The position numbers were made by a program, and so were the translations under genes. Of a stretch of DNA of 64,000 bases, positions 12,235 to 60,866 are shown piece after piece. The stretch spans positions 73,221 through 137,220 of the forward strand of contig JBMORF010000076.1 of the NCBI GenBank assembly GCA_049322315.1, given 5' to 3'. The notes under the pieces are model-generated. The model was not told where the DNA came from. It searched no databases and was given only the letters and a program-made list of their open reading frames with translations. Source of the stretch: Thermodesulfobacteriota bacterium. GTDB taxonomy: Bacteria > Desulfobacterota > Desulfobaccia > Desulfobaccales > 0-14-0-80-60-11. The stretch's first letter is position 1. Every line of letters starts with the position of its first letter.

Positions 12235-12237
12235 TGG

Positions 12238-12684: not shown

Positions 12685-12687
12685 GGT

Positions 12688-14697: not shown

Positions 14698-15197
14698 GGC
14701 CACTACCTCTTTTACGATCCGGCCTAGAGCGTCGGCAAAGGGGAAGGCTGAGAAGTTGAGGAATAAAGGCGTCTTTTCTTTATTGATAAACACTTTTCTC
14801 CCGGAAGCCAGTGGCTTGCGGCTCCGGAACAGCAGTTCCGGACCCTGGTGGGCCACCCCCGGGGCAAACCGCTAGTGATGATTTCATCCAGGACCTTAAT
14901 AACGGCAGGTGATTTGGCTAACTGACTGAATTGCAGCTCTTTCTGCTTTTTTCGCTGGACCATGGATGTCACTGCCTCCTTTTCTCAAGGCAATCAAAAC
15001 CGTCTCAGATGATCAGCGAATAATGCTTTATATACCTAATCGTCAAAGTTAAAACCCAAATTAATCTCAGCTAGTTATTTTTTTTAATATCTCCATATTC
15101 TTAATCGCTTTTAACGGAGATCACCCTAAACGGAGAGGAGTAAATGCCATGGAAAGTCAAGTTCCCGGTCCTTATGGCCTGGAAAAGCACGGTATTT

Positions 15198-15468: not shown

Positions 15469-16446
15469 CTACAGCCAGCCTGCAGCCTTATACCAGGCTG
15501 CGGCGTCGGCCAGGCCGGTTAACAGGTCCATGGACGGCTGGAAGCCGATCTCGGCCTTGGCCCGGGCATTACTGCATAGCCATTGGGCCTGCCGTATGTC
15601 CCGGAGCTTGTCAAGACTCATTAAGGTGGGAGTGGAGGTGAACTGGGAGGTGAGAGAGCCACCCAGGGCTACCAGACGCATGAGCCACCAGGGCACATAA
15701 AAGGTCAGGTAGCGTTTGCCCAGCGCCCGGCCCGTATATTCCCCGATGGTCCGCCAATCATAATGCCCTTCGCCGCAGATAAAATAGATGCGCCCCTGGC
15801 TCCGGGGGGAGGCCGCGGCCAGCAAGATCCCGGTCACCAGATCGTGGACGTGCGCCAGGCTCACTTTTTGCCCGGGACCGCCGGGAATAACGTGGAGGCC
15901 CCGATTAATGCTTTTGATCAGCAAAAAAGTGTCCCGGTCCCGGGGGCCATAGACCACAGGAGGGCGGATGATGGTGGCGCCGCGGCTTTGGCTGTACTCC
16001 AGGACGGCTTTCTCCGCGGCCAGCTTAGAGGCGCCGTAGGCGGATACGGGTTGCGGCTCCTGGTCCTCGGATAGGGGGGCGCCGGAGCTGGGACCGGCGG
16101 CAGAGAGACTGGAAATTAATACGAATTTTTGCTCTGGAGGACCATAATGCTCACAGGCCTGGAGCAGGTTGAGGGTAGCCTCGAAGTTGGCCCGGAAAAA
16201 GGCGGCCCGGTCCCGGGCCCGGGTGGCGCCGGCCACGTGGAACACCACTTCGGTGTCCGCCACCGCCGGGGCCAGGGAGGCCGGGTCCTGGAAATCCCCG
16301 GTCACCAGAGTTACCGGCAGATTTTTGAGCCAGATAAGGTTGCTGCCCCGGCGCACCAGGCACTTGACCGCGGCGCCTGCGGCCAGCAAGCGATCCACCA
16401 GGTTGCTGCCGATAAAGCCGCTGGCTCCGGTAACCAAGGCGCGCAT
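15469..16446 (-). CDS. Extended-SDR NAD(P)-dependent reductase/epimerase (HpnA / cinnamoyl-CoA-reductase-like)
   Basis: Start at MRALVTGASGFIGSNLV (GxxGxxG). Catalytic 'YGASKLAAE' (YxxxK). Begins 4 nt after the PPTase stop. Confidence 0.8.
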   Translation of the reverse strand: MRALVTGASGFIGSNLVDRLLAAGAAVKCLVRRGSNLIWLKNLPVTLVTGDFQDPASLAPAVADTEVVFHVAGATRARDRAAFFRANFEATLNLLQACEHYGPPEQKFVLISSLSAAGPSSGAPLSEDQEPQPVSAYGASKLAAEKAVLEYSQSRGATIIRPPVVYGPRDRDTFLLIKSINRGLHVIPGGPGQKVSLAHVHDLVTGILLAAASPRSQGRIYFICGEGHYDWRTIGEYTGRALGKRYLTFYVPWWLMRLVALGGSLTSQFTSTPTLMSLDKLRDIRQAQWLCSNARAKAEIGFQPSMDLLTGLADAAAWYKAAGWL

Positions 16447-16450
16447 GGGC

Positions 16451-17218
16451 TTATCCCCCCGGGGCCGGAGTCTTAGGGGCGGCAAGGCGCATCCAGGCCA
16501 CCGAGAGCCAAACCTGGTGCAGGCGGATGGAGGCTACCGCCAAGACTTCTTGACTCCCCCAAGGAGCCGGGTCCGGACCGGGAGCCTCCAAATAGCCGCG
16601 CCAGCAGGGGCCGTGGTCCCCTTTACCGGTGCTTTCCACCCGGATCTGGCGGGGGCCGCAGAAATGGTAGCCGCAGCCCCGGGCTTTCACCACCGCTTCC
16701 TTGGCCGACCAGAGGAGGGCCGCGGCTTCTTCCCGGTCCCCTCCCGTCAGGGAGGTGGCCGCCTGCCACTCCCCGGTCCGAAAGACCTTGTGCACGGGAT
16801 AGGCCCCGGTAAACTCATAAGGTGAGGCCGCGTCCAAGCCGATCCAGGAACTGGTGGTGCCCAGGGCCGCCCACCATGCCCCCGCGCTCCAACTGAAAGA
16901 AACCCCGGGTCCGGGAGCGCCGTCCAGCAGAAGATGGGGTTTGCCCCAGCGGTTTTGCACCAGGGACAATTCCCGAGTCCTGCCGGAGGGGTAGTGTTCC
17001 TGGAGCAGGGCCGACAGGAATTCTTGTTTCATTTGCAAGCTAAAGGACCTGGGCCAAAGACGCCTGGAATTACTCCCGTTCTCCGGCAGTAAGGCCAGAT
17101 AAGCAGGCTCCCCATAGGGAGAATAGAGCGCCCCGCGGCTCACCCCTGGATGGTGGAGGTTCCAGGCCAGAGGGCCATAACTGTCCTGCTCCCTGATTGT
17201 TCCCGATACCTGCATCAT
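16451..17218 (-). CDS. Sfp-type 4'-phosphopantetheinyl transferase
   Basis: 'WIGLDAAS' (the GxD metal site) and 'LWSAKEAVVKARGCG' (the W..KEA..K motif). The start overlaps the PKS stop by 4 nt (atga). Confidence 0.75.
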   Translation of the reverse strand: MMQVSGTIREQDSYGPLAWNLHHPGVSRGALYSPYGEPAYLALLPENGSNSRRLWPRSFSLQMKQEFLSALLQEHYPSGRTRELSLVQNRWGKPHLLLDGAPGPGVSFSWSAGAWWAALGTTSSWIGLDAASPYEFTGAYPVHKVFRTGEWQAATSLTGGDREEAAALLWSAKEAVVKARGCGYHFCGPRQIRVESTGKGDHGPCWRGYLEAPGPDPAPWGSQEVLAVASIRLHQVWLSVAWMRLAAPKTPAPGG

Positions 17219-20200
17219 CCGGAAAACCAGCGCATCTGGAGGTTCCTTACCTGCATCAGGGGCTGGCCGTCGGCGTCGCTGGCTTGGGCGTCCCAGACCA
17301 TGCCCTTATCGTCATCGACGCGCAACCGGGCCTCCAGAATAATTTGCTCCTGATCCCGGCACTGACGGCCAATAACCATCTCCCCAATGGCCACGGGGAT
17401 AAAGGTGCGGTCATCCTCCTCATTTCTCATCTTCAGGTAAAAGCTGGTCATCTGCATCAGGCTTTCCAAGAGATAGGGAGCGTATTGGAGGCTGGGCGCT
17501 TGCAGGTGAGAAAAGTCCGGGTTGATCCGGTAGATGCCCGCGCCTCGCACTACTCCTGGCCCGGAGCCGTCCAAATGGCCCACCACCCTATATCGGCCTT
17601 GCATTTCCGTGTGCTCATCATACCATTCAATGATTTCTTCTAAATCCGCGGGACGAGTGTCCAACTCTTCCAGCTTCACGGGAAAATCCGGGAGATCGAG
17701 CCAGGGTAGTGCGCCTTCTCCCCCCATAAGCACTTGGGCCTGGTAATTGAGGGCTTTCTTCTCCAGTACCCTGCCCGTGGGAGAGATAAGCGGGGTTTCC
17801 ATGGTGAGGTCGCATACCGTCAACCCACCTTGATGTCGGCAACTTTGGCAGGTGATGTAGGAATCGATGGCCACTTCCACCGGGACCTCGATGACCTCGG
17901 TAAACTTTGCCTCTCTTACTCCCAACACCCGCAGGTAGGGATACAGGAGGCGGGATGCTTCCATAAAGGTCTCCAGGGCCATGATGGTGGAGACCAGGGG
18001 ATATTTTAAAAATTTGAAGGGTTTATGGTCGGCGATCCACAGGTCTTTTTCCTGGGAAAACGTCCGGTTCGCCCGTAACCACCCCTGGCGCAGGGAGAGC
18101 TGGGAAACGGCGTCGATCATGGGGAACTGTTCCGGGGCAAAGACCAGACTGCCCGTGGTGACGCCCGGCGAGGGCTGGGGTGCGCTTTCCGTATCCAGCC
18201 GGACGCTCTTGATCTCCGGGAGCCGGGACATGAACATCACCCAGACCTCGTCAGGCTCTCCCAGGAGCAGCTCCCGGCAGAAGAGTTCCGCGAGTTCCAC
18301 CGGCTCAAAATAACCGACCCCCATCTTTTCCAGGAAACGGCGCACCTCTTCGTTGTCGGCCATGCCGCTGCCGCTGATGGGGGGCAGCATCAGGGCCTTG
18401 CACCGGATTTCCGGATGGTTCTCCTTTATCTGACTCAGGAGGCCGGACATCATGCGGTTGGCCGCGGTATAGTTGGACTGCCCCCGGTTGCCCTGAATGG
18501 CCGCCGCGGAAGACAGGGCCACCAGGAAGCGCAAGCCGCTGGACCTGGCGGTGGTGAACAGGTTCCAGAGGCCCCGGAACTTGACGTCCAGGACGCTGGC
18601 GATATCATCGGCAGACAAGTCCGGTAGTAACCGGTCCCGTACCAGGCCGGCGGCGTGCACGATGCCATCGAGCCGGCCGTACTTGTCGAGGATTGCCCGG
18701 ACTGCGGCCTGCACCTGGGCCGGGTCCGTCACGTCGCAGGAGAGATAAGTGACCTCCAGGCCTGAGGCCCGCAGGTCTGCCAGGGTCTTCAGGACCTGCC
18801 GGGCCTGCAAGAGACGGGTAATCTCCCGGCCTAAATTATCCTGGGAGATGTCCGGCTGCTGCTGCATAATCTCCCAGCGCAGGGCTTTTTCCGCAGGCTC
18901 GTCTTCCTGGAGCAGTTCCACCAGCTTCGGCTCCAGGTCGATGGCGGTGCGGCCCAGGATGACCACCCTGGGTTTTAAGGGGGCCAGACCCTTGACCAAA
19001 TGGGGGGTGATGCCGTAACCGCCCCCGGAGAAGACCACCACGTCTTCCCGGTTCAAGGTCAGGCGCGGTTCCCCAGAAACCAAGGACAAAGCCATCCGGC
19101 CTTCCCTGGTCAGGAGCTGCCCTTGCTGATAGATGGTCTCCACCACCGGCTGTCGGGGGTCCAGGGCCTGGCGCAACGCCCGGGTCAGGTCCGCGTCCCG
19201 GTCCAGCCGCAGGGTGCGGCACAATACGGAGGGGTACTCTAAAGCGCTGCTCAGGAAGAGGCCCAGAAGCCCCTGGGCCAGCAGGCCCAACCCGCCGGTT
19301 TCCTCCCCGGAGCAATTAAGGGTGAGGGCAAATTTCTTCCGGGGCGCGGCCACCAAGGTCTGCATCAGGGAGAAAAAGCCCTGGACCAGGTGGGGCAGGT
19401 CCACCATTTCGTGGAGTTCTGGGGTCAGGCTGTCGTCCAGGAGAAAGACCACCCCGGCCAGGGAGTCATCTTCCTTAATCTTGGCCGCGGCCCGGGCGGC
19501 CTCTTCCGGCTGGCGCAGGTCGAAACCCGCCCCCTCCTGGCCCGGGTGAGACTCCAGGAAGGCGAAGGTCTTCGGAGTGACGCCAAAAATCTGGCGGAAG
19601 TGGTCGTTAATCCGTTCCCGCCATTCCGACTTCAGAGTGGGGCAGAACAGGGCCACGGTGTCGGCTGAGGTCAATTCCAGGGGTTGGGGCTCGAAGTCCG
19701 CCAGGGGCGCCGGATGGAAGGTCAGCCGCTTGAGCTTCTCCTCCTCAGGGACCTGGGGCTCCGGAGACTCCCGGCCGGGGGCGGCTGCAGCTTTGGCCGC
19801 CTGGGTCACGGCCCCCGGTTCTCCGCCCCGGGCCGCCACTTCGGCAATCTGGGTGGCCAGTTCCCGGACGGTGCGGACATCCATGAAGTCTTCCAGGCGG
19901 ATTTCAATGCCGAACTTGGTTTCGGCCGCGTCCATGATCACCGGCAGGCGGCTGGAGCGGATGGCCAGGTCGGTCCGCAGGTCCATGTCCGGCTCAATCT
20001 CATCCCGATCATAGCCGGTGGCCTCCATGATGAGGAGGATCACCTCTTCCAGATAGTCGGAGACCGGCTGGGCTCCGGCCGGGACGGGCACAGCCGTTGC
20101 GGCTGCCGGGGTTGGCAGGGCCGCCGCGGCGGCAAAAGCCGAGGTGAGGGCCGAGGCCTGGCTTCCGGCCATCTGCCGGGCTTGCAGCCACTGTTCCAGA

Positions 20201-23200
20201 CTGTCCTCGGAGAAATGGGGATCGTGCTCCCGGCGGATGGCCGCCAGCAGGCCCGGTTTCAAGAAGCGTCCGAAGCTTTCCAGGACAAAGGCGTTGATCT
20301 CCCGCTGGACAATGCGCTCCATAGGGTCCATCGGCGTTATCGGCGTCAGACCGGAGCGCGCCGTGCCGGACGTCGCCGGCGCCGAGGCCGGGCGCTGGCC
20401 CGGAACCGTGGGGAAGGAGATGAACTTCAATGGCTTAGGCGCGGTCAGATGACCACCGGCCACCAGTTGGGCGGTGGCCGTTTTCAGGGTCTGGCCTTCC
20501 GCTTCCGCCAGGCAGGTGGCAATACATCGGGGCGATTCCAGGGTTTCGGTGATGAGATTGCTGAGCGCGTCTCCCGGCCCCACTTCCAAAAAGACCCGGA
20601 TGCCGAAATCCTGCCATAAGGTGCGGACATTGCTGATCCACTGCACCGGAGATTCCAGGTGGGCCATGACGATCTTTTTGATGGCCTCCGGGTCATCGGG
20701 GAAGGGCTCCTTGGTGGTGTTGGAGATCACCGGGATCTTGGGAGCGTGGAAGGGCAAAGGCGTGATGAACGCCAACATATCGTCATGGATCACCCGCATA
20801 ATGGGAGAATGGAAGGACATGCTCACCTTCAGCTGGGTGGCCCGGTAACCTTCGGACTTGATCTCCAGCCGCAGGGCCTGGACGGTGTTAGTCTCTCCTC
20901 CCACCACTATCTGGTTGGGGGCGTTATAGTTGGTGATAAAGACGTCCTTTAAGGCCTTCACCTTCGCTTCCACCAACTCCAGGGGCATGTCGGTGGCGAT
21001 CATGATGCCGGGGTCCAGGTTCAGCAGGCAGGCCTTGTCCATGCAGATGGCCCGCTGGTTCACCAACCGGAAGCCGTCCTCAAAGGAAAATACTCCGGAG
21101 ATAGCCAGGGCCGTGAGTTCTCCCAGGCTGTGGCCGGCCATGGCCTTAGGCCTAATGCCCAGGGAGAGGAGGTACTGCACCATGGCGTATTCCAGGGTGA
21201 AGGTGGCGGGTTGCTGCCAGCGGGTCTTCTGGAGGTCCTCTTCCCGGTTATTAAAGATTAAATCCAAAAGATCGAAATCGGCGAAGGACGCGGCCTGGTC
21301 CATATACTCCCGGATGATGGGGAAGTTTTCATAGAGTTCCCGGCCCATGCCGGAGTATTGGGCCCCCTGTCCGGGAAAGACCAGGGCGAGGGGCGGGGGC
21401 GTGACGTTTTCCGGCCCCAGAAAGACTCCTTTGCGCCCCAAAACCCGCAGGGTCTTCTCCGGGAGAGGACCGTTAGGTGAGAGGGGTTCCAGTTCCTGAA
21501 TCCGGTCTAAGGCCTCCTTTTCGGAGTCGGCCGGCAGGGCCACCCGGTAGGGATGCCCGTCTAACGTAGTGCGGCCGCAAATGACGCCAATGGGGGGGGC
21601 GACTTCCGGGCCGGAAGCCTCAGCCCCGGTGGACTCCGGCGGCAGAGAGACCAAGACGGTGTCCCGGCTGTCCAGTGACTCCTCCAGATGCATGACATAG
21701 TTGGAGCCGCCGAATCCGAAAGAATTTACCTGGAGCCTACGGGGGCGTCCATTGGCGGCGGGCCAGTCCAGGGGCTCGGTGGCCACCATGAGCCCGGATT
21801 CCTCGATGCCCATGGCGGGATCATGGTTCCGGTAGTTGAGGGTGGGGGGAAAGACCCCGGCCTGCATGCCCGAGACGCCCCGGATGAGGCTGTTGATACC
21901 GGAGGCGCCCAGAGTGTGGCCGATTTGGGATTTAAAAGAGGATAACACGGTGCGGCTGTTGCCCTGGTAAAAGGTCTGGAGGGCCTTGACCTCTTCCACG
22001 TCCCCCTGGAAAGTAGCGGTAGCATGGCATTCAATCAGATCCACCGCCTCCGGGCCGTAAGGCAGGTCCTCAAAGGAGGTCCGGATGGCGATCTCCTGGG
22101 TGTCCCGGGAGGATTCCACCAGCCCCAGGTTGTTGTTGGAGGCGCCGGTGCCGGTGAGGTAGGCGTGCACCCGGGCGCCCCGGCGCCGGGCCACCGACTC
22201 CGACTCGATGACGATCATGCCTCCGCCTTCCCCCAGCACCATGCCGTCCCGGGTGAGGTCAAAGGGACGGCTGCCCTCTTCCGGGGGATGCTGCTTTCCG
22301 GAGATGCCCGCCAAGGCCCCCAGCGCCGAAAATTCCAGGAAGTGCATGGGGGTGAGATTCTCTTCGCCGCCGCCGACGATGGCCGCGTCGATGATGCCGT
22401 TGTTAATCATCTGGATGGCGCTGTACAGAGCCACCAGGGAGGTGGCGCAGGCCGCGGACACCGCAAAACTGGGACCTTGAAAGCCGTATTTATTGGAAAT
22501 GAAACCGCCGGCGGTGCAGTTGAGCCTCCCCAGCAGGGTGGTATCGTCAATGGCCAGCCGCCCGTCTTTCACCTCATTGGTGATGGCCTCAGCCAATTCC
22601 GGGGACAGGGAAACCACCCGCTGAATGGTGTGCAGGATTTCATCCCAGGCGCCCCGCACCAACAAGTCCATGAGGGTACCCGCGGCCTCGCCGGAATTCT
22701 GGGAGATAAGCACGCCGATGCGCTCCGGGGGGATGCCGGCGGAGAGGATGCCGGATTCCTCAATGGCCTTGGCCGCCAGCCACAGGGTAAGCCTGGTGGC
22801 GTGGGTCATGGTGCGGAAGTCCTGGGGCGCGATATCCAGGTCCTTCCGGGTGATGACTAAATGATGGAAGGCCCCCACCTGGCAATAGGTTTTCTCCGGG
22901 GTCCGGGGCCGGGGATGGAAAAAGAGTTGATGGTTCCAGCGCTCCGGCGGCACCAGGGTGATGCCGCTTTTCAAAGCCAGGCTGGCAGCCCACACCTCGG
23001 TGGGGGAGTTCCCCAGGGCGTTCACCAGGCTCATGCCGGTGATGGCGATCCTCTCCCCTTCGTCCCTCCGGGAGGTGGAGCCCCGATGCCGGGGTCCCGG
23101 GGTGGCGGTTTTTCGGGGGGCCCCCAATTCCGGCTGCTCTAAGCTAAGGGGACCCTCGGCCAACTCCCGGTGCAGCTCCGCCACGGATTGGACCTGGGTG

Positions 23201-25167
23201 ATGGCGCCGGCGCAGGCCCCGCTCATAAACTGGCCCTGGTCCAGGCACGCGGCCTCCGGCAACCGGGGGCCTTGAGGCCCGGCCGTGCCCCGGGCGGCTA
23301 CCAGCAGGCTGCCGGCGGCCAGGGTTTCCATGTCCCGGCGAAAGGAGGCTTCGTCCTGGCGGCCACACCTAAAATCTTGTTCCAGGGCGGCGATGCGGTC
23401 CATGGCCGGAGTTTTTAAAGACCGCACCCGGAGTCCGGAACATTCCCCGCTGATCACCGTGGACCCGGGGGCGGATTCCAGAATGAGCCGCTGATAGAGG
23501 GCGGATAAGGCCCCGGTGCTGACTATTTCCCGGGTGGCCAGGTAAGCGGTGCCCATTTGCAGGGCGTCGGCTCCCAGCATGGCGGCCATGGAGGCCGTCT
23601 CCCGGTGATAGATGCCCCCGGCCAGGATCAGCCGCCGTCCTTCCAGGAGTTGCGGTTCTTTACGCTTCAGTTCCAGGAGGATTTGGGCCAGGGTAAAGGT
23701 GGTGTGCTGGCCCACGTGGCCGCCGGCTTCATTGCCCTCCAGGATGAGGTAGCGCACCCCGGCCCCGCAGGCCAGGCGCAGCAGGTCCTCGTTGGGGGCG
23801 ATATAGATGGCTTCGATGCCCTGCTTTTGCAGCTCGGCCGCAAAGGATGGCTCCCCCGCGGCAATGACCGCGAAGCGGGGGCGATTTTGGGTAATCCAGG
23901 CCAGTTGGCTGTCCCGATGGGGATTTTCCGCCAGGGCAATGACATTGACCGCGTAAGGCAAATCCCCCATGACTTCTGGCAGGCGCTGAAGTTTTTGGGC
24001 CAAAGCCTCCCGGTCCATGAGCCCCAAAGCCACGGTGGGCAGGCCTCCGGCCTCGGCCACCGCCCGGGCGAATTCCGGGACATCGGTGATCCAGGACATG
24101 GCCCCTTGAATGAGGGGGTATTTACAGCCCATTTCCCGGGCCACGGGGCTTCTGCCCAAAATTTCCGCCTTTTCCTGGGCCTGGGCCAGTTGCCCCTTGA
24201 TGGCGGCCAGGAAGCCTGCCAGCGCTTGCTGGGTTCTTGAGCCGTAGTGGGCGGCAAAATCCTGGGCAAAGGCCGCCTCCACTCCCAGGGGAATGAGTTC
24301 CTCCCGGTGAAACCGGCTTTCCTGGACGGGGACGGCCATCCGGGCGACTTCCCGGGCAAAGGCCCGGCGGGATTCTCCAGTTAACTCGCCCCCGGCGGCC
24401 GCGGCCGCGTCCTGAACCTTCTTTACCGCCTGGGAGTTGCCCCGATTGAAAAAGCGGTGGGGAACTCCCAGATCGAGGCCCACCAATTGGGTGTGATCGG
24501 GACGCAAGCGGGCCAGCCCCTGGCGGGGGGCCTCTCCCAGGCCCACCAGGTCCGTCAGCCAATGGAGACTTTCCAAAACGATGCCCCGGGCGCCGGTGGC
24601 CAAAAAGGCCGCGGCTGCTTCCGGAGTAGCCACCCCTCCCCGGATTACCAGGGAAGGAGCGGACTGCCGCTGACGCAACCGGTCCCGGACCGCGGCATAC
24701 ATGGTGAAGATGGATTCACTGCCCACCCAGCCTGCGGCTTCACAACCTTTAAGGACCAGATGGGGGAGCTGGGGAAGATGGTCCAAGGTCTCCAGGATAA
24801 AAGGGGTATCGCTGAGAATGGGAAAGACTTCCACGTCAGGGCTGAAGGCCAGGAGCCTCTCCAGGGCCAGTGGAGGGGATTCATCCAGCACCAGGGGCTG
24901 AAATTCCACCCACAGCCCTTTGAGGGCCAGAGATTCCAGAAGCTCGGGAAGTAAGGGGTCTTTCAAGACCTCCGGGGCCACCTGGAGATGGACCGCTTCC
25001 CCAGGAAATTCAGCCTGCTTTAAGGCCGGAACTGCGGCGCTCAAAGTCAAGTGAGATATATCGACCAGGGCGATAGTCCCTGTATCCCGGGCCATTTGTG
25101 CCACTGCCGGCGAGAACTCTTCCAGCCGCCAGACCGTGGCAATTATCGGACGCATGGGTGCCAACAC
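17215..25167 (-). CDS. Single-module type I PKS / PUFA-synthase-like enzyme (TIM-like, ER(NPD), KS, AT, ACP, KR, DH)
   Basis: 2650 aa. Domain motifs are listed in the seven domain features that follow. No thioesterase, reductase or condensation release domain was recognised. Confidence 0.9.
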   Translation of the reverse strand: MLAPMRPIIATVWRLEEFSPAVAQMARDTGTIALVDISHLTLSAAVPALKQAEFPGEAVHLQVAPEVLKDPLLPELLESLALKGLWVEFQPLVLDESPPLALERLLAFSPDVEVFPILSDTPFILETLDHLPQLPHLVLKGCEAAGWVGSESIFTMYAAVRDRLRQRQSAPSLVIRGGVATPEAAAAFLATGARGIVLESLHWLTDLVGLGEAPRQGLARLRPDHTQLVGLDLGVPHRFFNRGNSQAVKKVQDAAAAAGGELTGESRRAFAREVARMAVPVQESRFHREELIPLGVEAAFAQDFAAHYGSRTQQALAGFLAAIKGQLAQAQEKAEILGRSPVAREMGCKYPLIQGAMSWITDVPEFARAVAEAGGLPTVALGLMDREALAQKLQRLPEVMGDLPYAVNVIALAENPHRDSQLAWITQNRPRFAVIAAGEPSFAAELQKQGIEAIYIAPNEDLLRLACGAGVRYLILEGNEAGGHVGQHTTFTLAQILLELKRKEPQLLEGRRLILAGGIYHRETASMAAMLGADALQMGTAYLATREIVSTGALSALYQRLILESAPGSTVISGECSGLRVRSLKTPAMDRIAALEQDFRCGRQDEASFRRDMETLAAGSLLVAARGTAGPQGPRLPEAACLDQGQFMSGACAGAITQVQSVAELHRELAEGPLSLEQPELGAPRKTATPGPRHRGSTSRRDEGERIAITGMSLVNALGNSPTEVWAASLALKSGITLVPPERWNHQLFFHPRPRTPEKTYCQVGAFHHLVITRKDLDIAPQDFRTMTHATRLTLWLAAKAIEESGILSAGIPPERIGVLISQNSGEAAGTLMDLLVRGAWDEILHTIQRVVSLSPELAEAITNEVKDGRLAIDDTTLLGRLNCTAGGFISNKYGFQGPSFAVSAACATSLVALYSAIQMINNGIIDAAIVGGGEENLTPMHFLEFSALGALAGISGKQHPPEEGSRPFDLTRDGMVLGEGGGMIVIESESVARRRGARVHAYLTGTGASNNNLGLVESSRDTQEIAIRTSFEDLPYGPEAVDLIECHATATFQGDVEEVKALQTFYQGNSRTVLSSFKSQIGHTLGASGINSLIRGVSGMQAGVFPPTLNYRNHDPAMGIEESGLMVATEPLDWPAANGRPRRLQVNSFGFGGSNYVMHLEESLDSRDTVLVSLPPESTGAEASGPEVAPPIGVICGRTTLDGHPYRVALPADSEKEALDRIQELEPLSPNGPLPEKTLRVLGRKGVFLGPENVTPPPLALVFPGQGAQYSGMGRELYENFPIIREYMDQAASFADFDLLDLIFNNREEDLQKTRWQQPATFTLEYAMVQYLLSLGIRPKAMAGHSLGELTALAISGVFSFEDGFRLVNQRAICMDKACLLNLDPGIMIATDMPLELVEAKVKALKDVFITNYNAPNQIVVGGETNTVQALRLEIKSEGYRATQLKVSMSFHSPIMRVIHDDMLAFITPLPFHAPKIPVISNTTKEPFPDDPEAIKKIVMAHLESPVQWISNVRTLWQDFGIRVFLEVGPGDALSNLITETLESPRCIATCLAEAEGQTLKTATAQLVAGGHLTAPKPLKFISFPTVPGQRPASAPATSGTARSGLTPITPMDPMERIVQREINAFVLESFGRFLKPGLLAAIRREHDPHFSEDSLEQWLQARQMAGSQASALTSAFAAAAALPTPAAATAVPVPAGAQPVSDYLEEVILLIMEATGYDRDEIEPDMDLRTDLAIRSSRLPVIMDAAETKFGIEIRLEDFMDVRTVRELATQIAEVAARGGEPGAVTQAAKAAAAPGRESPEPQVPEEEKLKRLTFHPAPLADFEPQPLELTSADTVALFCPTLKSEWRERINDHFRQIFGVTPKTFAFLESHPGQEGAGFDLRQPEEAARAAAKIKEDDSLAGVVFLLDDSLTPELHEMVDLPHLVQGFFSLMQTLVAAPRKKFALTLNCSGEETGGLGLLAQGLLGLFLSSALEYPSVLCRTLRLDRDADLTRALRQALDPRQPVVETIYQQGQLLTREGRMALSLVSGEPRLTLNREDVVVFSGGGYGITPHLVKGLAPLKPRVVILGRTAIDLEPKLVELLQEDEPAEKALRWEIMQQQPDISQDNLGREITRLLQARQVLKTLADLRASGLEVTYLSCDVTDPAQVQAAVRAILDKYGRLDGIVHAAGLVRDRLLPDLSADDIASVLDVKFRGLWNLFTTARSSGLRFLVALSSAAAIQGNRGQSNYTAANRMMSGLLSQIKENHPEIRCKALMLPPISGSGMADNEEVRRFLEKMGVGYFEPVELAELFCRELLLGEPDEVWVMFMSRLPEIKSVRLDTESAPQPSPGVTTGSLVFAPEQFPMIDAVSQLSLRQGWLRANRTFSQEKDLWIADHKPFKFLKYPLVSTIMALETFMEASRLLYPYLRVLGVREAKFTEVIEVPVEVAIDSYITCQSCRHQGGLTVCDLTMETPLISPTGRVLEKKALNYQAQVLMGGEGALPWLDLPDFPVKLEELDTRPADLEEIIEWYDEHTEMQGRYRVVGHLDGSGPGVVRGAGIYRINPDFSHLQAPSLQYAPYLLESLMQMTSFYLKMRNEEDDRTFIPVAIGEMVIGRQCRDQEQIILEARLRVDDDKGMVWDAQASDADGQPLMQVRNLQMRWFSG
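17218..18135 (-). other. PKS dehydratase (double hot-dog) domain, aa ~2345-2650
   Basis: 'LWIADHKPFKFLKYPLVS' has His2381 with Pro at +9, i.e. HxxxGxxxxP spacing with G replaced by K. It is the C-terminal domain of the protein. Confidence 0.6.
18235..19044 (-). other. PKS ketoreductase catalytic subdomain, aa ~2042-2311
   Basis: 'VVVFSGGGYGITPHLVKGLA' Rossmann motif, 'CDVTD', 'GIVHAAG' and 'SSAAAIQGNRGQSNYTAAN' (S..Y..N). A putative structural subdomain lies upstream, from about 19662. Confidence 0.75.
19825..20064 (-). other. PKS acyl carrier protein domain (single copy), aa ~1702-1781
   Basis: 'EPDMDLRTDLAIRSSRLPVIMDAAETKFGIEI'. Ser1738 occupies the DSL position, but the motif reads I-R-S-S rather than (G)xDS(L/I). 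Confidence 0.65.
20551..21390 (-). other. PKS acyltransferase domain, aa ~1260-1539
   Basis: 'LVFPGQGAQYSGMG', the active-site 'AGHSLGE' (Ser1347), 'SFHSPIM' and 'FLEVGPG'. Confidence 0.85.
21679..23055 (-). other. PKS ketosynthase domain, aa 705-1163
   Basis: 'ERIAITGMS'. Active-site Cys907 in 'AVSAACATSLVA' (codon 22447-22449). 'ECHATAT' and 'KSQIGHTLGASG' His motifs. 'NSFGFGGSNYVMHLEE'. Confidence 0.85.
23158..24141 (-). other. PKS enoyl-reductase domain, PfaD/PksE-type (nitronate monooxygenase fold), aa ~343-670
   Basis: 'CKYPLIQGAMSWITDVPEFARAVAEAGGLPTVALG', 'EGNEAGGHVG', 'LQMGTAYLATRE'. Confidence 0.75.
24178..25167 (-). other. PKS N-terminal degenerate TIM-barrel/NPD-like region (aa 1-330)
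   Basis: 'LVLKGCEAAGWVGSESIFTMY' parallels 'LILEGNEAGGHVGQHTTFTL' of the next domain, but the FMN/His motif is degenerate. Confidence 0.4.
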
Positions 25168-25374: not shown

Positions 25375-26484
25375 TTATAAGCAGTCGGGGCAGTGGAGGT
25401 CGTAGCCGTAACGTTCAAAGGTTGGCCCCCAATGCTGACGTACTTTGGCGATGGTGGCGGCGTCCAGTCTATAGGTGTTTTTCCGGTAATTTTTCTGGGA
25501 TTCCAAATAGGGAACCACCCGGCGCCAACATTCCTCAAACCCAGGCAGGCCGAGGGCGGCATAGATGTTTTGCAAAGTCTCCCGGGGATTGCTTACCAGG
25601 TCTTCGTATCTTACTTCCACCAGGGACCCGGCCGGAATTAACCCCCGATCCCGCTCGTACAGTGAATAAAGCTCGGTATACCAGGATAAAATATTCTTTT
25701 CCACGGCCTCCGGATCGGGAATCTGGAGATGAGTGTAGCTGAAGCCGGTCTGCCACAAATGTTTCATGGAAAGATAGACTTTATAAGGATTGCGGTAAAT
25801 ATGAATAAATTTGGCCTGGGGAAATAATTCCAACAAGAGGCGCACGCGGCCTAAATGGGGGGGTGATTTGAAGACAATCCTCTTGCCTTTGGAAAAGGTA
25901 AGTTTCTCCACAAAATACAAAAAAGCGGCCTTCCATTCATCCAGGTCCTCCTTCTCCAAATGGGCAGGGTCCAGGGCCCCAAAACCATTATCGCCGCTGC
26001 CGGGGAAAAGCACGCGCATATAGGGGGAGACGGTGGCCAGCGCCGCCAGGGCGAATTCATCTTCATGGGGCACTTTGGCGGCAATGGTCATGTTGTCCAT
26101 GGGTCTTTTCGACGGAGAGAAATAGTTGAAGATGGTCATGGCCCAGGGCTGGGTATAGACAAAATGGTGCGGAAACATGACCTGGTAATAAGTAGGCGTG
26201 GTGAAGTTTTCATCCTGATTCAGGAGGTTGTGCAGATGGGTCGTGCCGCTGCGCCAACAACCGATGATAAAAATCGGGGGGGCCACGGGCTTGGTACCCT
26301 TGATCTTATAATCGTTGCAACGGCGTTCGAAGCAGGCCAAAACCGAATTAACACCGGCCATACCAAATAAATAAAGAAGCCGCTGCCAATAGCGGGGAGC
26401 CACCTGAAACCGGTTACGCCACAATACCCGCCAAAGAGTTGTCAAATTCATGCCAGGAATTGCTTGCCAAAATAGTTTTTTCAA
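25375..26484 (-). CDS. PAPS-dependent sulfotransferase (Sulfotransfer_3-like), stand-alone
   Basis: 5'-PSB loop 'IIGCWRSGTTHLHNLL' and a 3'-PB-like 'FIHIYRNPYKVYLS'. 369 aa. Confidence 0.75.
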   Translation of the reverse strand: MKKLFWQAIPGMNLTTLWRVLWRNRFQVAPRYWQRLLYLFGMAGVNSVLACFERRCNDYKIKGTKPVAPPIFIIGCWRSGTTHLHNLLNQDENFTTPTYYQVMFPHHFVYTQPWAMTIFNYFSPSKRPMDNMTIAAKVPHEDEFALAALATVSPYMRVLFPGSGDNGFGALDPAHLEKEDLDEWKAAFLYFVEKLTFSKGKRIVFKSPPHLGRVRLLLELFPQAKFIHIYRNPYKVYLSMKHLWQTGFSYTHLQIPDPEAVEKNILSWYTELYSLYERDRGLIPAGSLVEVRYEDLVSNPRETLQNIYAALGLPGFEECWRRVVPYLESQKNYRKNTYRLDAATIAKVRQHWGPTFERYGYDLHCPDCL

Positions 26485-26784
26485 AGTTTTTAGGACCCCT
26501 ATTACTTCGCATCACCAGGAGCGAGCTTGTATGTTTGCAGGATGATGATTTTTGATGCTTGAGGTTCCTGAAAAAAAACGTCCAGATAAAAGGAAAATTT
26601 AGCCACATCAGAGGCAGCCGGTTTTCCCCGGATATTTCTGGGCCCCTCCGTGGTTAAGAGTTTCTCCCCAGGCGAGTACTTCTTCAATTATACTTAAAGA
26701 TTACCAAAAACCAAAGTTGGCAGGCTGTGGGGGCCAGGGTTGTACCTCTTTTTCCGGGTGATCAATGCCGACGGCAGCATCCCT

Positions 26785-27306
26785 TTAGGAGATATAGCCG
26801 CATTTCTCCAGATAAGTCAGTATCTTGGCCATACTGTCATCAATAGTTTCCTGAGCCGTCTGGACCATAATCTCCGGTGACTCGGGAGGCTCGTAGGGAT
26901 CGGAGACACCCGTGAAATTCGAGATTTCTCCTGCCAGGGCCTTGGCATATAGTCCTTTGGGGTCCCGGGTTTTGGCGACCTCTACAGGACAGTCGCAAAA
27001 GACCTCCAGGTAATGGTCGATAATCTGGCGGTTTTTCGCTCTGGTAGCCGCGTACGGGGAAATCGCGCCGACGATGGCGATTACCTCATTCTTGTTTAAC
27101 AACTGGGAAATGAGGCCCAGGCGGCGCACCTGAATGTCCCGGTCCCGCTGGCTGAATCCCAAATCCTGGTTAAAGGCGGTGCGTATCAGATCGCCATCCA
27201 GTAATTCGACTTTGAGACCCCGGGATTTTAAATGAAAATATATCCCTTGCGACAAAGTTGTTTTTCCAGACGCAGGAATGCCGGTGAACCACAAAGTAAA
27301 GCTCAT
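26785..27306 (-). CDS. cysC: Adenylyl-sulfate (APS) kinase
   Basis: 'LWFTGIPASGKTTLS' P-loop, 'LLDGDLIRTAFNQDLGFSQRDRDIQVRRLG' and 'AISPY'. Confidence 0.85.
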   Translation of the reverse strand: MSFTLWFTGIPASGKTTLSQGIYFHLKSRGLKVELLDGDLIRTAFNQDLGFSQRDRDIQVRRLGLISQLLNKNEVIAIVGAISPYAATRAKNRQIIDHYLEVFCDCPVEVAKTRDPKGLYAKALAGEISNFTGVSDPYEPPESPEIMVQTAQETIDDSMAKILTYLEKCGYIS

Positions 27307-27403
27307 AAGAATATTTAGGTGATGTAAGGATAAAATCTTACGTAGTAAATGTTAATCAACCTGCCGTAGTTTGATCGGGCAGCAGGAAGGCGCAGCACCT
27401 GGG

Positions 27404-28540
27404 TTAGGCGGCCAATTCCTTGCGGTATAACCTGAATCTTTTGTTCACCTTGGCGCCGCCATCAAGATACCATTGGTTGATCAAATCATTGTCTTCCAGG
27501 TTCCAGCCTAATTCAATGTACTGATATCTAGCATACTTTGGATTATCCATCAACAACCGGAACAGGTAATCGAAGGCCACCAGGGGCAGCCCCTGTTGCT
27601 GGTACTTTTTTCTGATGCCAAAGATCATCCCCCGCCAGCCGTTGATCTCTCTTTTGTAAAGGAGATACTTGAGCAAACCCAGGAGTCCCACTTTGCCGTT
27701 GAGCCTTTTTAGCAGGGGATAGATATCGTCGACCACCATCCCCACGCCCACCGGTTCCTCCCCGTCCACCAGGAAGAAACAGAGATCCGGGTCCACGATG
27801 CGCGCCAGGTGGCGGCCCATATCCTCGACTTCGGCGTCGGTCATGGGCACAAACCCCCAGTTGTCGAACCAGGCCTCATGATAGATCTCCTTCACATAAT
27901 TCATTTCCGTGTGGATATCTTTGAGGCGAAAGGGCCGCATCTGGATATTACTCTTGTTGATGATGCGCCGGGCCAGACGATTCACCCAGGGCGGCGGCTG
28001 CCAGCCGCGATCCACCCGGAAGGCCAGCAGATCCTTTTCTTTGGTGAAGCCCTGGGCTTCCACCAACCCCGGATAATAGGAAGGATTATAGCTCATCATA
28101 AATACCGGGGGTTGGGCAAATCCCTCCACCAGCATGCCGCTTTCGTAATTGGTGGAAGGGTTCAAGGGGCCCCGGATAAAGGTCATGCCCCGGCTCCGAA
28201 CCCAGTCCCCGGCCGCGGCCAAGAGGGCTCCCGCAACCTCAACGTCGTCGGCGCATTCAAAAAAACCCCAGATGCCCATGCGCTCATCGTGAAACCGGTT
28301 GTAATTATGGTCCACGATGGCGGCGATGCGCCCCACAATCTCTGAACCGCGCTGAGCCAGAAAGAGTTGGCGCTGGGCGAACTTCCAGAAAGGATGAGCC
28401 TGGGGGTCGAGAAGCCGGGCCACCTCCTTTTTTAAAGGGGGCACCCATTGGGGGTCCCGGGCGTAAATCTTCCAGGGCAGGTCCACAAAGGCCCGTATCT
28501 GCCCGGGTTGCTCCACGGGGATGACTTTCACTTGTTCCAT
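27404..28540 (-). CDS. Large (378 aa) GNAT-fold acyltransferase of unknown substrate
   Basis: 'FVDLPWKIYARDPQWVPPL' N-terminal signature of an uncharacterised GNAT family. Acyl-CoA loop 'IFGIRKKYQQQGLPLVAF'. Confidence 0.5.
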   Translation of the reverse strand: MEQVKVIPVEQPGQIRAFVDLPWKIYARDPQWVPPLKKEVARLLDPQAHPFWKFAQRQLFLAQRGSEIVGRIAAIVDHNYNRFHDERMGIWGFFECADDVEVAGALLAAAGDWVRSRGMTFIRGPLNPSTNYESGMLVEGFAQPPVFMMSYNPSYYPGLVEAQGFTKEKDLLAFRVDRGWQPPPWVNRLARRIINKSNIQMRPFRLKDIHTEMNYVKEIYHEAWFDNWGFVPMTDAEVEDMGRHLARIVDPDLCFFLVDGEEPVGVGMVVDDIYPLLKRLNGKVGLLGLLKYLLYKREINGWRGMIFGIRKKYQQQGLPLVAFDYLFRLLMDNPKYARYQYIELGWNLEDNDLINQWYLDGGAKVNKRFRLYRKELAA

Positions 28541-60861: not shown

Positions 60862-60866
60862 AGACA

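What the first reader, a model, noticed from the sequence alone, without database searches (positions are those of the whole stretch)
17215..25167. Unusual PKS architecture: tandem TIM/NPD-like N-terminus, one atypical ACP, a terminal DH and no release domain
The domain order read from the motifs is:
- a degenerate TIM-like region (aa 1-330);
- a PfaD-type ER (343-670);
- KS (Cys907);
- AT (Ser1347);
- a ~160-aa unassigned linker;
- a single ACP whose Ser motif reads LAIRSS instead of (G)xDS(L/I);
- KR;
- DH with H-x8-P spacing but Lys in place of the usual Gly.

The protein ends in the DH. It has no TE, R or C domain, so chain release must occur in trans. The SDR at 15469 or the GNAT are candidates for that step.

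An ER at the extreme N-terminus, preceded by a second degenerate copy, is not the canonical PfaA-D split.
Basis: partly seen in the sequence, partly recalled or inferred. Interest (0 to 1): 0.55.

Follow-up and report, generated by a model that had tools for sequence, protein, structure and literature searches.

The report
Lipid megasynthase with twin reductase domains
This 2,650-residue fatty-acid-synthase-like enzyme is conserved in about 300 species, the best-matching 80 all uncultured (mostly anaerobic lineages); it carries an inactive-looking twin of its reductase domain, an odd carrier domain and no release domain, and probably builds the fatty chain of an unknown, here sulfated, membrane lipid.

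Summary
ORF 17215-25167 (-) encodes psiER-ER-KS-AT-linker-ACP-KR-DH with no TE, R or C domain.

- **N-terminus:** a confident model of aa 1-345 has the FabK/NMO fold. It lacks the FMN motif I and the catalytic His.
- **Second copy:** a complete ER, but FabK-type rather than PfaD-type.
- **ACP:** its serine (S1738) follows Arg instead of Asp. The motif DL(S/A)IRSSRLP is invariant or nearly so in 120 homologues.

The architecture is not rare. Full-length relatives occur in 298 species genomes. The best 80 are all MAGs, mostly Thermodesulfobacteriota and Nitrospirota. I found no characterised member.

Ending in a DH without a TE is the normal PfaA layout, and N-terminal ER fusions are already described. 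The His-less/His-bearing tandem also occurs in larger relatives.

The context points to a lipid pathway:
- a translationally coupled PPTase;
- a tandem-GNAT acyltransferase just upstream in 48 of 69 loci, replaced in 14 by a thioester-reductase-like SDR;
- Spt-like genes in some relatives;
- in this subclade, a sulfotransferase, an APS kinase and a B12 radical SAM enzyme.

Best reading: an iterative, fully reducing lipid synthase released in trans, feeding a sulfated amide-linked or sphingolipid-like lipid. It is a new variant of a known kind, of moderate interest.

The parts
17215..25167 (-). Megasynthase gene, 2650 aa: psiER-ER-KS-AT-linker-ACP-KR-DH
   Evidence: ORF list and translation. 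Pfam and NCBIfam domains. An identical protein is in NCBI as a MAG Thermodesulfobacteriota protein on a 210,564-bp contig.
24133..25167 (-). psiER, aa 1-345: FabK/NMO-fold TIM barrel without motif I and with Trp148 in place of the catalytic His (LKGCEAAGWVG)
   Evidence: AF2 model pLDDT 90. Foldseek top hits are FabK, NMO, PfaD and FabX. hhalign against the ER profile gives E 3e-5. Motif survey. The domain always sits at the N-terminus of proteins of about 2.45-2.68 kaa.
23155..24132 (-). ER, aa 346-671, FabK-type: motif I QGAMSW (354-359), motif III EGNEAGGH with H484
   Evidence: Pfam NMO 96.8 bits. NCBIfam FabK TIGR03151, 136 bits, is the only hit. Motifs are conserved in the family. Motif definitions come from PMC13311796.
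21673..23055 (-). KS, aa 705-1165: C907, H1048, H1084
   Evidence: Pfam ketoacyl-synt N and C. Motifs conserved. The FabF, PKS_plus_SDR and PfaA models score about equally.
20530..21390 (-). AT, aa 1260-1546: GHS1347LGE, R1372, xSFH; malonyl type
   Evidence: Pfam Acyl_transf_1. FabD TIGR00128 scores 215 bits. Motifs. The substrate call is an inference from published AT motifs (own knowledge).
20053..20529 (-). AT-ACP linker, aa 1547-1705: low-complexity Ala/Pro stretches around one conserved helical-looking block (about 1590-1650)
   Evidence: No family hit. Not ACP-like by hhalign. Conservation profile.
19828..20052 (-). Single ACP, aa 1706-1780: phosphopantetheine serine S1738 in DLAIR-S-SRLPVIMD
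   Evidence: Pfam PP-binding 28 bits. Gapless alignment to AcpM, DIDSL against AIRSS. The motif is invariant or nearly so in 120 homologues. Closest NCBIfam models are type II AcpP.
18268..19737 (-). KR, aa 1811-2300: structural half plus catalytic half, GGGYGIT, K2196, Y2233, N2237, LVRD (B-type-like)
   Evidence: Pfam KR and adh_short. The PfaA model aligns over its positions 1911-2255. Motifs. The stereochemical type is inferred from the published LDD rule (own knowledge).
17218..18135 (-). DH, aa 2345-2650: double hot-dog, H2381-x8-P2390 (HKPFKFLKYP), E2568 in LLESLMQ
   Evidence: Pfam PS-DH 47.6 bits. A family profile gives weak matches to the PksJ, CurJ, CurF and CurK DH structures, with His and the acid aligned. 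Motifs conserved.
16451..17218 (-). Sfp-type PPTase, 255 aa; its ATG overlaps the synthase TGA (ATGA)
   Evidence: Pfam ACPS. IGLD and WSAKEAVVKA motifs. Overlap read. A PPTase follows the synthase in 39 of 58 loci with enough flank.
15469..16485 (-). Extended SDR, 338 aa, of the 3beta-HSD/HpnA/epimerase kind; overlaps the PPTase gene by 35 nt
   Evidence: Pfam and NCBIfam. PDB relatives. It is 40% identical to the SDR next to the Spt-like gene in L004.
25375..26484 (-). PAPS-type sulfotransferase, 369 aa: RSGTT 5'-PSB and RNPYKVYLS 3'-PB motifs
   Evidence: Pfam Sulfotransfer_3, 134 bits. Sequence. Distant PDB relatives are 2z6v, 2zq5 and the OLS ST 4gox. Conserved only in the closest subclade: L005, L006, L008, L010, L025 and the P0003 locus.
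26785..27306 (-). APS kinase, 173 aa (PAPS supply)
   Evidence: Pfam APS_kinase, 179 bits. Found with the sulfotransferase in L005, L006, L008 and the P0003 locus.
27404..28540 (-). Tandem-GNAT acyltransferase, 378 aa: candidate off-loading or N-acylating enzyme
   Evidence: No Pfam, NCBIfam or PDB sequence hit. AF2 pLDDT 88. Foldseek matches tandem GNATs: 2wpw, 7q3a, 5kf1, MshD, FemX. It lies within 2.7 kb upstream of the synthase in 48 of 69 loci.
28606..30177 (-). B12-binding radical SAM enzyme with DUF4070, 523 aa
   Evidence: Pfam. NCBIfam gives class-B radical SAM methylase-like hits, all below cut-off. It is 69-76% identical in L005, L006 and L008.

Best explanation
The gene encodes an iterative, fully reducing, single-carrier type I fatty-acid-synthase-like lipid synthase. 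It belongs to the 'secondary lipid synthase' relatives of PUFA synthases.

Proposed mechanism:
1. The translationally coupled Sfp-type PPTase puts phosphopantetheine on S1738.
2. The malonyl-type AT loads the ACP.
3. KS (Cys-His-His), KR, double-hot-dog DH (His2381/Glu2568) and the FabK-type FMN reductase (His484) run repeated C2 cycles. This builds a long, largely saturated chain that may keep a hydroxyl.
4. The His-less first TIM barrel does no reduction. FabK/PfaD-type ERs work as dimers, so it most likely serves as the built-in dimer partner or scaffold of the active ER.
5. There is no release domain, so the chain leaves in trans. The most likely route is the conserved tandem-GNAT protein, giving an amide-linked lipid. 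An Spt-like alpha-oxoamine synthase encoded elsewhere is the alternative.
6. In this subclade the product is then tailored. The SDR does a keto reduction, the B12 radical SAM enzyme probably a C-methylation, and the sulfotransferase a sulfation with PAPS from the adjacent APS kinase. The end product would be a sulfated membrane lipid of the sphingolipid/aminolipid type.

Shown here: the domain set, the motifs, the folds, the conservation and the gene neighbourhoods. Inferred: iterativity, chain type, the role of psiER, the release route and the final product.
For: - Complete catalytic set with conserved active-site motifs across 120 homologues.
- Component domains resemble type II FAS parts: FabK, FabF, FabD, AcpP and FabG models.
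- psiER has the FabK fold but lacks motif I and the catalytic His. In 42 of 45 full-length representatives the first-domain motif is present and none has His; in 35 of these the second domain has E(A/S)GGH.
- ER domains of this class act as homo- or heterodimers (PMC13311796).
- The PPTase is translationally coupled and conserved downstream.
- The tandem GNAT is directly upstream in 48 of 69 loci. A thioester-reductase-like SDR takes that place in 14. No locus has both. This is the pattern expected of alternative release enzymes.
- Relatives sit in sphingolipid-type clusters. L004 has SDR, an Spt-like gene (567 bits against a cut-off of 640), GNAT, a PAP2 weakly similar to IPC synthase, an EptA-like gene and an ABC transporter. 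L010, which has the sulfotransferase, has an Spt-like gene plus a MacB/OEP/HlyD exporter.
- The sulfotransferase has PAPS-binding motifs and lies next to an APS kinase.
Against: - No member has been studied experimentally, and no isolate is among the best 80 genomes.
- No Spt-like gene lies in the 64-kb window. Only 7 of the 85 sequences compared (84 loci plus the window) have one within 10 kb.
- Orthology of the GNAT to bacterial ceramide synthase could not be tested. Adjacency does not prove that it takes the chain from the ACP; it could load a starter instead.
- Whether psiER binds FMN is unknown. It keeps the GG phosphate loop and shows strong family-specific conservation (HWLTD, FNKGNS), which could mean a different activity.
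- Chain length and degree of reduction cannot be read from the sequence.
Confidence: 0.55

Rival explanations
1. Release is by an Spt-like alpha-oxoamine synthase. The ACP-bound chain is condensed with serine or alanine to give a long-chain base. The SDR then reduces the 3-keto group, the GNAT N-acylates the amine, and the sulfotransferase sulfates a hydroxyl. The synthase would make the sphingoid base, not the N-acyl chain.
For: - Spt-like genes lie beside the synthase cluster in L004 and L010.
- The window SDR is the orthologue of the SDR next to the Spt-like gene in L004.
- Bacterial Spt can use acyl-ACP (PMC11087976).
- Release of TE-less reducing PKS chains by an alpha-oxoamine synthase is known from fungal fumonisin and sphingofungin pathways (own knowledge).
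Against: - An Spt-like gene is near the synthase in only 7 of the 85 sequences compared, and none is in the window.
- The GNAT, not the Spt-like gene, is the constant neighbour.
Confidence: 0.2
2. Reductive release to a fatty aldehyde or alcohol by an SDR, followed by O-sulfation. The product would be a long-chain alkyl sulfate.
For: - Type B clusters pair the synthase with a thioester-reductase-like SDR (TIGR01746, 88 bits).
- The window has an SDR translationally linked to the PPTase, plus a sulfotransferase and an APS kinase.
Against: - The window SDR is of another kind: HpnA/3beta-HSD-like, only 22-23% identical to the type B SDR, and 58.8 bits against a cut-off of 213 on the thioester-reductase model.
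- This reading leaves the conserved GNAT without a role.
Confidence: 0.08
3. CurM/Ols-like terminal-alkene formation. The sulfotransferase sulfates the ACP-bound 3-hydroxyacyl chain, and hydrolysis with decarboxylative elimination gives a 1-alkene.
For: The sulfotransferase has a weak sequence match to the OLS ST (4gox, E 3e-7) and to the CurM ST (E 0.17).
Against: - No thioesterase is present in the protein or the cluster.
- The sulfotransferase occurs only in one small subclade of the family.
- The nearer PDB relatives of the sulfotransferase are the free-standing proteins 2z6v and 2zq5.
Confidence: 0.04
4. It is the cell's housekeeping fatty acid synthase, or a PUFA synthase.
For: - It has every activity of a FAS cycle.
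- A 'core FAS' role was once proposed for a pfa-like cluster in Desulfobacterium autotrophicum (PMC3098273).
Against: - The window encodes LpxA, LpxK, KdtA and MsbA. This implies ordinary type II acyl-ACP supply (inference).
- The family is patchy, with 298 of 185,579 species, and always sits among tailoring and export genes.
- For PUFA synthesis it lacks the PfaC-type KS-CLF and FabA-like DH/I domains and the tandem ACPs. It scores 452 against a cut-off of 1010 on the PfaA model.
Confidence: 0.05
5. The tandem GNAT is a loader, priming the ACP with a starter acyl group as GNAT loading domains do in CurA-type PKSs. Release is by an unidentified enzyme.
For: - GNAT fold and constant adjacency to the synthase.
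- GNAT loading domains are known in PKSs (own knowledge).
Against: - Type B clusters manage without it, and a reductase takes its place.
- The fold matches are to N-acyltransferases with two GNAT halves, not to single GNAT loading domains.
Confidence: 0.08

Closest known systems
PUFA synthase PfaA/PfaD and 'secondary lipid synthases', including fused pfaDA genes (Shulse & Allen 2011, PMC3098273; bioRxiv 10.1101/2025.10.24.682833)
   Same: - The KS-AT-ACP-KR-DH order ends in a PKS-type DH with no TE.
- The ER is a TIM barrel and sits in front in the fused forms.
- A PPTase gene is adjacent.
- The PfaA model aligns end to end over the KS and over the KR.
   Different: - One ACP instead of 3-9.
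- No PfaB or PfaC partner (KS-CLF, FabA-like DH/I).
- The ER is FabK-type, not PfaD-type.
- It scores well below the PfaA cut-off (452 against 1010).
- The extra His-less TIM barrel has not been pointed out in the papers I could read.
FabK, the FMN-dependent enoyl-ACP reductase II
   Same: - Both N-terminal domains have the FabK fold.
- The second has FabK motif I with Trp and motif III with His, and hits TIGR03151.
   Different: - Here it is fused in tandem to a megasynthase and scores below the equivalog cut-off (136 against 453).
- The first copy lacks the catalytic motifs.
Thraustochytrid PUFA synthase ERb/ERc heterodimer (PMC13311796)
   Same: Two non-identical ER domains of one synthase pair up. 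This is a precedent for a two-ER unit.
   Different: - There, both copies keep the catalytic His and FMN, and they sit on two polypeptides.
- Here, the copies are adjacent on one chain and one lacks the His. Pairing has not been shown.
Bacterial sphingolipid pathway Spt-bCerS-CerR (PMC11087976)
   Same: Relatives of this cluster encode an Spt-like enzyme, GNAT-fold acyltransferases and an epimerase-type SDR side by side. Bacterial Spt can use acyl-ACP.
   Different: - No megasynthase is part of the known pathway.
- No Spt-like gene is in this window.
- Orthology of the GNAT and the SDR to bCerS and CerR is untested.
ArsA/ArsD type I FAS of Azotobacter phenolic lipids (own knowledge; mentioned in PMC3098273)
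   Same: An iterative FAS-like synthase without a TE, whose ACP-bound chain is handed directly to the next enzyme.
   Different: The domain split is different, the acceptor there is a type III PKS, and there is no tandem ER.
CurM/Ols sulfotransferase-thioesterase off-loading
   Same: A PAPS-dependent sulfotransferase is associated with a PKS/FAS. There is weak similarity to the OLS ST.
   Different: The sulfotransferase is free-standing, no TE is present, and the sulfotransferase is limited to one subclade.

Membership tests
Type I FAS/PKS megasynthase | KS with Cys-His-His, AT with GHSxG and Arg, ACP serine, KR Lys-Ser-Tyr-Asn core, DH His-x8-Pro plus an acidic residue | tested here: met
   Pfam scores are above the cut-offs. 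Residues C907, H1048, H1084, S1347, R1372, S1738, K2196, Y2233, H2381 and E2568 are conserved in the family.
PUFA synthase PfaA (TIGR02813) | Score above the family cut-off | tested here: not met
   452 bits in 4 stretches against a cut-off of 1010.
PUFA synthase PfaA (TIGR02813) | Several tandem ACP domains | tested here: not met
   One PP-binding domain. The linker block is not ACP-like.
PUFA synthase system | Partner PfaC/PfaB with KS-CLF and FabA-like DH/I domains | tested here: not met
   No second KS-bearing ORF in the 64-kb window or in the loci inspected.
PfaD-type ER | Match to a PfaD family model; PfaD-type motif I | tested here: not met
   FabK TIGR03151 is the only NCBIfam hit at E<=1e-5. 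Motif I is GAMSW, with the FabK Trp (PMC13311796). I did not verify that a PfaD model is in the library.
FabK/NMO flavoenzyme (second domain, aa 346-671) | TIM-barrel family match, motif I (G/A)xM, motif III xEAGGH with the catalytic His | tested here: met
   Pfam NMO 96.8 bits. QGAMSW and EAGGH484 are conserved.
FabK/NMO flavoenzyme (first domain, aa 1-345) | Same fold | tested here: met
   Foldseek E 2e-12 to FabK, probability 1.00, TMq 0.67. hhalign to the ER profile gives E 3e-5.
FabK/NMO flavoenzyme (first domain, aa 1-345) | Motif I and the catalytic His of motif III | tested here: not met
   No G-A-M motif. CEAAGW148, and no His at this position in any of 45 full-length representatives.
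FabK/NMO flavoenzyme (first domain, aa 1-345) | FMN binding | not testable with these tools
   The GG phosphate loop is kept, but the G-T pair is replaced by E-S. Cofactor analysis of the protein is needed.
Bacterial sphingolipid cluster (Spt, bCerS, CerR) | Serine palmitoyltransferase gene in the cluster | tested here: not met
   None in the window. An Spt-like gene is present in related loci L004 (567 bits against 640) and L010 (416 bits).
Bacterial sphingolipid cluster (Spt, bCerS, CerR) | GNAT orthologous to bCerS; SDR orthologous to CerR | not testable with these tools
   No reference sequences or models were at hand. Only the fold class agrees.
CurM/Ols ST-TE off-loading | Sulfotransferase followed by a thioesterase acting on 3-hydroxyacyl-ACP | tested here: not met
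   The sulfotransferase is a separate protein with only weak similarity. No TE is present anywhere in the cluster.
Sfp-type PPTase (neighbour 16451-17218) | ACPS domain with the (V/I)G(I/V)D and (F/W)(S/C/T)xKE(S/A)xxK motifs | tested here: met
   Pfam ACPS 38 bits. IGLD and WSAKEAVVKA are present.
Tandem-GNAT acyltransferase (neighbour 27404-28540) | Two GNAT halves in one chain | tested here: met
   AF2 pLDDT 88. Foldseek E 7e-13 to 2wpw and 7q3a, probability 1.00.

The most novel reading that the evidence does not exclude
This family is a dedicated supplier of unusual, possibly very long and hydroxy-bearing, acyl chains for sphingolipid-like lipids of anaerobic bacteria. The chain would pass straight from the odd Arg-Ser carrier domain to a ceramide-synthase-like tandem GNAT. 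In this subclade the sulfotransferase would then add a sulfate.

That would give a genetic origin for the sulfate-bearing 1-deoxyceramides with C32-C39 N-acyl chains found in euxinic Black Sea water. [quoted passage not shown]

In addition, the psiER-ER pair would be an intramolecular mimic of the ER dimer, with one half given over to a new non-catalytic or regulatory role.
Probability: 0.15. Interest if true: 0.8.

Novelty: new variant of a known kind. Interest (0 to 1): 0.55.

Why it matters
- **Scale:** about 300 species carry this synthase, mostly Thermodesulfobacteriota and Nitrospirota among the best matches. It is one of their largest genes, yet its product is unknown.
- **A testable lipid question:** the synthase sits with acyltransferase, Spt-like, export and (here) sulfation genes. 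It is therefore a concrete candidate for the source of orphan environmental lipids used as biomarkers, such as sulfated or very-long-chain ceramide-like lipids of anoxic waters.
- **Enzymology, twin barrel:** a conserved His-less twin of a FabK-type reductase is fused to the active copy.
- **Enzymology, carrier domain:** the acidic residue before the phosphopantetheine serine is replaced by Arg throughout the family. This implies a co-adapted PPTase and co-adapted partner enzymes.

Tried and rejected
- **Linker as a decayed second ACP:** rejected. hhalign of the conserved block against the family ACP profile gave probability 0.2%.
- **Sequence searches of the PDB:** the DH region alone and the GNAT gave nothing. 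A DH family profile gave only weak, though architecture-consistent, hits.
- **Literature:** searches for the domain string, for PKS together with serine palmitoyltransferase, and for hglE-KS in Desulfobacterota found no characterised member. One search call failed on syntax.
- **Shulse & Allen types A-T:** I could not map the family onto them because the figure is not held. Types J and S remain possible relatives.
- **Promoter and terminator scan:** counts were at chance level, so it says nothing about operon limits.
- **MFS gene 30555-31997:** not counted as part of the cluster. It is not conserved in the closest loci.
- **P-limitation lipids of sulfate reducers (PMC11181052):** the paper mentions no related genes.
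- **KS phylogeny against PfaA, HglE, Ols and enediyne clades:** not done, because no reference sequences were available. NCBIfam scores were used as a coarse substitute.
- **Model of aa 1-700 to test psiER-ER pairing:** not run.
Full report
**1. The observation**

The minus-strand ORF 17215-25167 is 2650 codons long and starts at a GTG. GAGG lies 5 nt upstream of the GTG. NCBI annotates the same gene from Met5, and an identical protein is on record from a Thermodesulfobacteriota MAG contig of 210,564 bp.

Pfam places the domains as follows:
- NMO (TIM-barrel ER) at aa 346-671
- KS at 705-1112
- AT at 1263-1546
- one PP-binding domain at 1709-1772
- KR at 2124-2247
- PS-DH at the C-terminus

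No thioesterase, reductase or condensation domain appears in Pfam, NCBIfam or PDB sequence searches.

The other catalytic residues are present and conserved in 120 homologues:
- KS: H1048 and H1084
- AT: R1372 and xSFH
- KR: K2196, Y2233 and N2237
- DH: E2568 in LLESLMQ
- ER: motif I QGAMSW and motif III EAGGH484

**2. The N-terminal region**

Residues 1-345 hit no family model. With an alignment of homologues, AlphaFold gives a confident model (pLDDT 90, pTM 0.90). Its best PDB matches are FabK, nitronate monooxygenase/NPD, PfaD, trans-AT PKS ER domains and FabX (E down to 2e-12, TMq about 0.67, 13-18% identity).

Homology to the neighbouring ER is also visible in sequence:
- BLASTP aligns aa 136-205 with the motif III region of the ER (E 3e-4).
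- A profile-profile comparison aligns 140 columns in register (E 3e-5).

So the 'degenerate TIM-like region' is a second FabK-fold domain. It lacks motif I, and motif III reads CEAAGW, with Trp148 where the catalytic His should be. The motif definitions are from PMC13311796.

The domain is not decaying. Pairwise identity within the family is 52%. That compares with the DH (54%), is above the structural half of the KR (44%), and is well above the linkers (19-41%). It also has invariant family-specific motifs, HWLTD and FN(K/R)GNS.

**3. The real ER is FabK-type**

FabK (TIGR03151) is its only NCBIfam match, and its motif I carries the Trp that PMC13311796 describes as typical of FabK. The other domains also look like type II FAS parts joined together: the FabF, FabD, AcpP and FabG models all score. 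Only the PfaA and Pks13 models cover the KS end to end, and the PfaA model also covers the KR.

**4. The ACP**

The domain aligns without gaps to mycobacterial AcpM. This puts S1738 on the DSL serine, so the preceding Asp is replaced by Arg. The motif DL(S/A)IRSSRLP(V/I)IMD is invariant or nearly so in the 120 homologues. It is therefore a family trait, not a defect.

A Sfp-type PPTase gene follows the synthase with an ATGA overlap. It is found downstream in 39 of 58 loci with enough flank. The charge reversal next to the serine suggests a co-adapted PPTase and partners; that is an inference.

The 160-residue AT-ACP linker holds one conserved block that is not a decayed ACP.

**5. The DH**

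Pfam scores the C-terminal hot-dog (47.6 bits). A family profile aligns weakly but over its full length with the CurJ DH structure. His2381 falls on the catalytic His, and Glu2568 falls on the catalytic Asp.

**6. How common it is**

- More than 120 protein clusters align over 100% of the query at 50-75% identity. Their lengths are about 2.6-2.7 kaa.
- A scan of one genome per GTDB species with the psiER alignment found 298 species. The best 80 are all MAGs: Syntrophales, Desulfobaccales, Desulfomonilaceae, Syntrophobacteraceae, Desulfarculales, Geobacteraceae, Thermodesulfovibrionales/Nitrospirota and a few Acidobacteriota.
- In 1.84 billion representatives, psiER has 49 relatives at E<=1e-30. 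It is always at the N-terminus of proteins of about 2.45-2.68 kaa, or of fragments of them.
- Weaker hits are larger megasynthases of 2.7-4.0 kaa with the same layout.
- In 42 of 45 full-length representatives the first-domain motif III is present, and none of them has His there. In 35 of these the second domain has E(A/S)GGH.

The tandem is thus an old, general feature of 'ER-first' synthases. Fused pfaD-pfaA genes are described in the literature (bioRxiv 10.1101/2025.10.24.682833). KS-AT-ACP-KR-DH ending without a TE is the normal PfaA layout. I found no paper that characterises this family or notes the His-less twin.

**7. Gene context**

In the window the cluster runs on one strand in this order:
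- B12 radical SAM (28606-30177)
- tandem GNAT (27404-28540)
- APS kinase (26785-27306)
- sulfotransferase (25375-26484)
- synthase
- PPTase (16451-17218)
- SDR (15469-16485)

The same order recurs in the closest relatives: L005, L006, L008 and the P0003 locus.

The 378-aa protein has no family hit. Its confident model (pLDDT 88) matches tandem-GNAT N-acyltransferases.

Across the 69 sequences (loci plus the window) with at least 2.7 kb of upstream flank:

| Upstream partner | Loci |
|---|---|
| Tandem GNAT within 2.7 kb (type A) | 48 |
| Divergent SDR instead (type B) | 14 |
| Neither | 7 |
| Both | 0 |

The type B SDR resembles thioester reductases, and type B loci also carry a TIGR04072-like 'lipid biosynthesis' B12 radical SAM gene. 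This mutually exclusive pattern is what alternative release enzymes would show.

Many type A loci add an ABC-2 transporter and a FemAB-like protein; two (L003, L004) also have an EptA-like transferase. Two loci tie the family to sphingolipid-type chemistry:
- L004 has SDR, an Spt-like gene (567 bits against a cut-off of 640), a GNAT paralogue, and a PAP2 weakly similar to inositol-phosphoceramide synthase, all next to the GNAT-synthase pair.
- L010 belongs to the sulfotransferase-bearing subclade. It has an alpha-oxoamine synthase closest to Spt, plus a MacB/OEP/HlyD exporter, transcribed divergently.

The window SDR is 40% identical to the SDR beside the Spt-like gene in L004. It is of the 3beta-HSD/HpnA kind, not a thioester reductase. 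The sulfotransferase has both PAPS-binding motifs. Its nearest solved relatives are the free-standing proteins 2z6v and 2zq5, with only weak similarity to the OLS and CurM sulfotransferase domains.

**8. Interpretation**

The protein has all the parts of a reducing elongation cycle, one carrier and no release domain. The best reading is an iterative FAS-like lipid synthase whose product is taken from the ACP by a partner.

- **psiER:** ER domains of this class act as homodimers, and as a heterodimer in thraustochytrids (PMC13311796). The His-less twin is therefore most simply the built-in dimer partner of the active ER. This is inferred, not shown.
- **Release:** the tandem GNAT is my first choice, from its constancy and from its replacement by a reductase in type B. 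An Spt-like enzyme is the main rival; that route would make the synthase the source of a long-chain base.
- **Tailoring in this window:** the SDR, the B12 radical SAM enzyme and the PAPS-dependent sulfotransferase would tailor the lipid. This predicts a sulfated amide-linked or sphingolipid-like lipid.
- **Not the sole FAS:** a lipid A/LPS core cluster at 52-63 kb (KdtA, MsbA, LpxK, LpxA) implies an ordinary type II acyl-ACP supply (inference).

**9. A speculative link**

Black Sea euxinic waters contain sulfate- and sulfono-1-deoxyceramides whose N-acyl chains are C32-C34, and up to C39. According to the authors, such long chains have not been reported from any organism. Desulfobacterota are among the suggested producers (PMC11334938).

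A dedicated megasynthase next to a GNAT, a sulfotransferase and an APS kinase is the kind of gene set such lipids would need. I give this about 15%.

**10. Verdict**

Trans release with the GNAT as candidate is plausible. The architecture is widespread, and its backbone is a known type.
- It is a new variant of a known kind (PUFA-synthase-like secondary lipid synthases), uncharacterised and of moderate interest.

Noticed in passing
window 52423-63239 (+): A lipid A/LPS core gene set: KdtA (52423-53730), an MsbA-like ABC exporter (53883-55820), an 810-aa fusion of LpxK with a family 9 heptosyltransferase (56506-58938), a HAD phosphatase, a second heptosyltransferase, a GT2 and LpxA (62433-63239). 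The LpxK-heptosyltransferase fusion is unusual.
   Followed up: partly
window 9550-14856 (-): Directly downstream of the lipid cluster lie a hybrid PAS histidine kinase with two receiver domains (894 aa), a single receiver protein (148 aa) and a PAS/GAF histidine kinase (722 aa). Whether they regulate the cluster is unknown. They are not conserved next to it in the P0003 locus.
   Followed up: no
window 36044-37647 (+): A radical SAM/SPASM protein is followed by a NirDL-like siroheme decarboxylase-type regulator domain protein. This looks like part of the alternative haem (Ahb) or haem d1 route common in sulfate reducers.
   Followed up: no
window 41670-44561 (-) and 50472-52097 (+): A 963-aa DEAD-box helicase with an MrfA Zn-binding domain and an RNase H-like tail. 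Separately, a 541-aa fusion of an N6/N4 DNA methylase with an Mrr-type restriction endonuclease domain.
   Followed up: no
L001, L002 and 12 other loci (type B), e.g. L002 8692-9783 and 19254-20816: A second cluster type for the same synthase: a divergent thioester-reductase-like SDR upstream, and downstream a B12 radical SAM protein scoring 314 bits on TIGR04072 ('lipid biosynthesis B12-binding/radical SAM', cut-off 360). In L001, SAM synthetase and AdoHcy hydrolase genes follow.
   Followed up: partly
L004 5794-6912 and 8032-9153; L003/L004 genes after the PPTase: Type A loci can hold two paralogous tandem GNATs (41% identical), one beside the Spt-like gene and one beside the synthase. They also hold a third FemAB-like protein of about 390 aa and a conserved 286-aa protein with no family hit, which lies between GNAT and synthase in 22 loci.
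   Followed up: partly
window 16001-24000 versus flanks: G+C is 62-65% across the synthase gene against 50-58% in most neighbouring 2-kb bins (for example 26001-28000 at 51%). Other bins in the window also reach 61-64%, so this is not clear evidence of transfer.
   Followed up: no
P0357, P0335, P0327 and similar proteins: Larger megasynthases (2.7-4.0 kaa) from other lineages share the roughly 690-residue N-terminus: a His-less first barrel and, in most, a His-bearing second barrel before the KS. The tandem therefore predates this family.
   Followed up: partly
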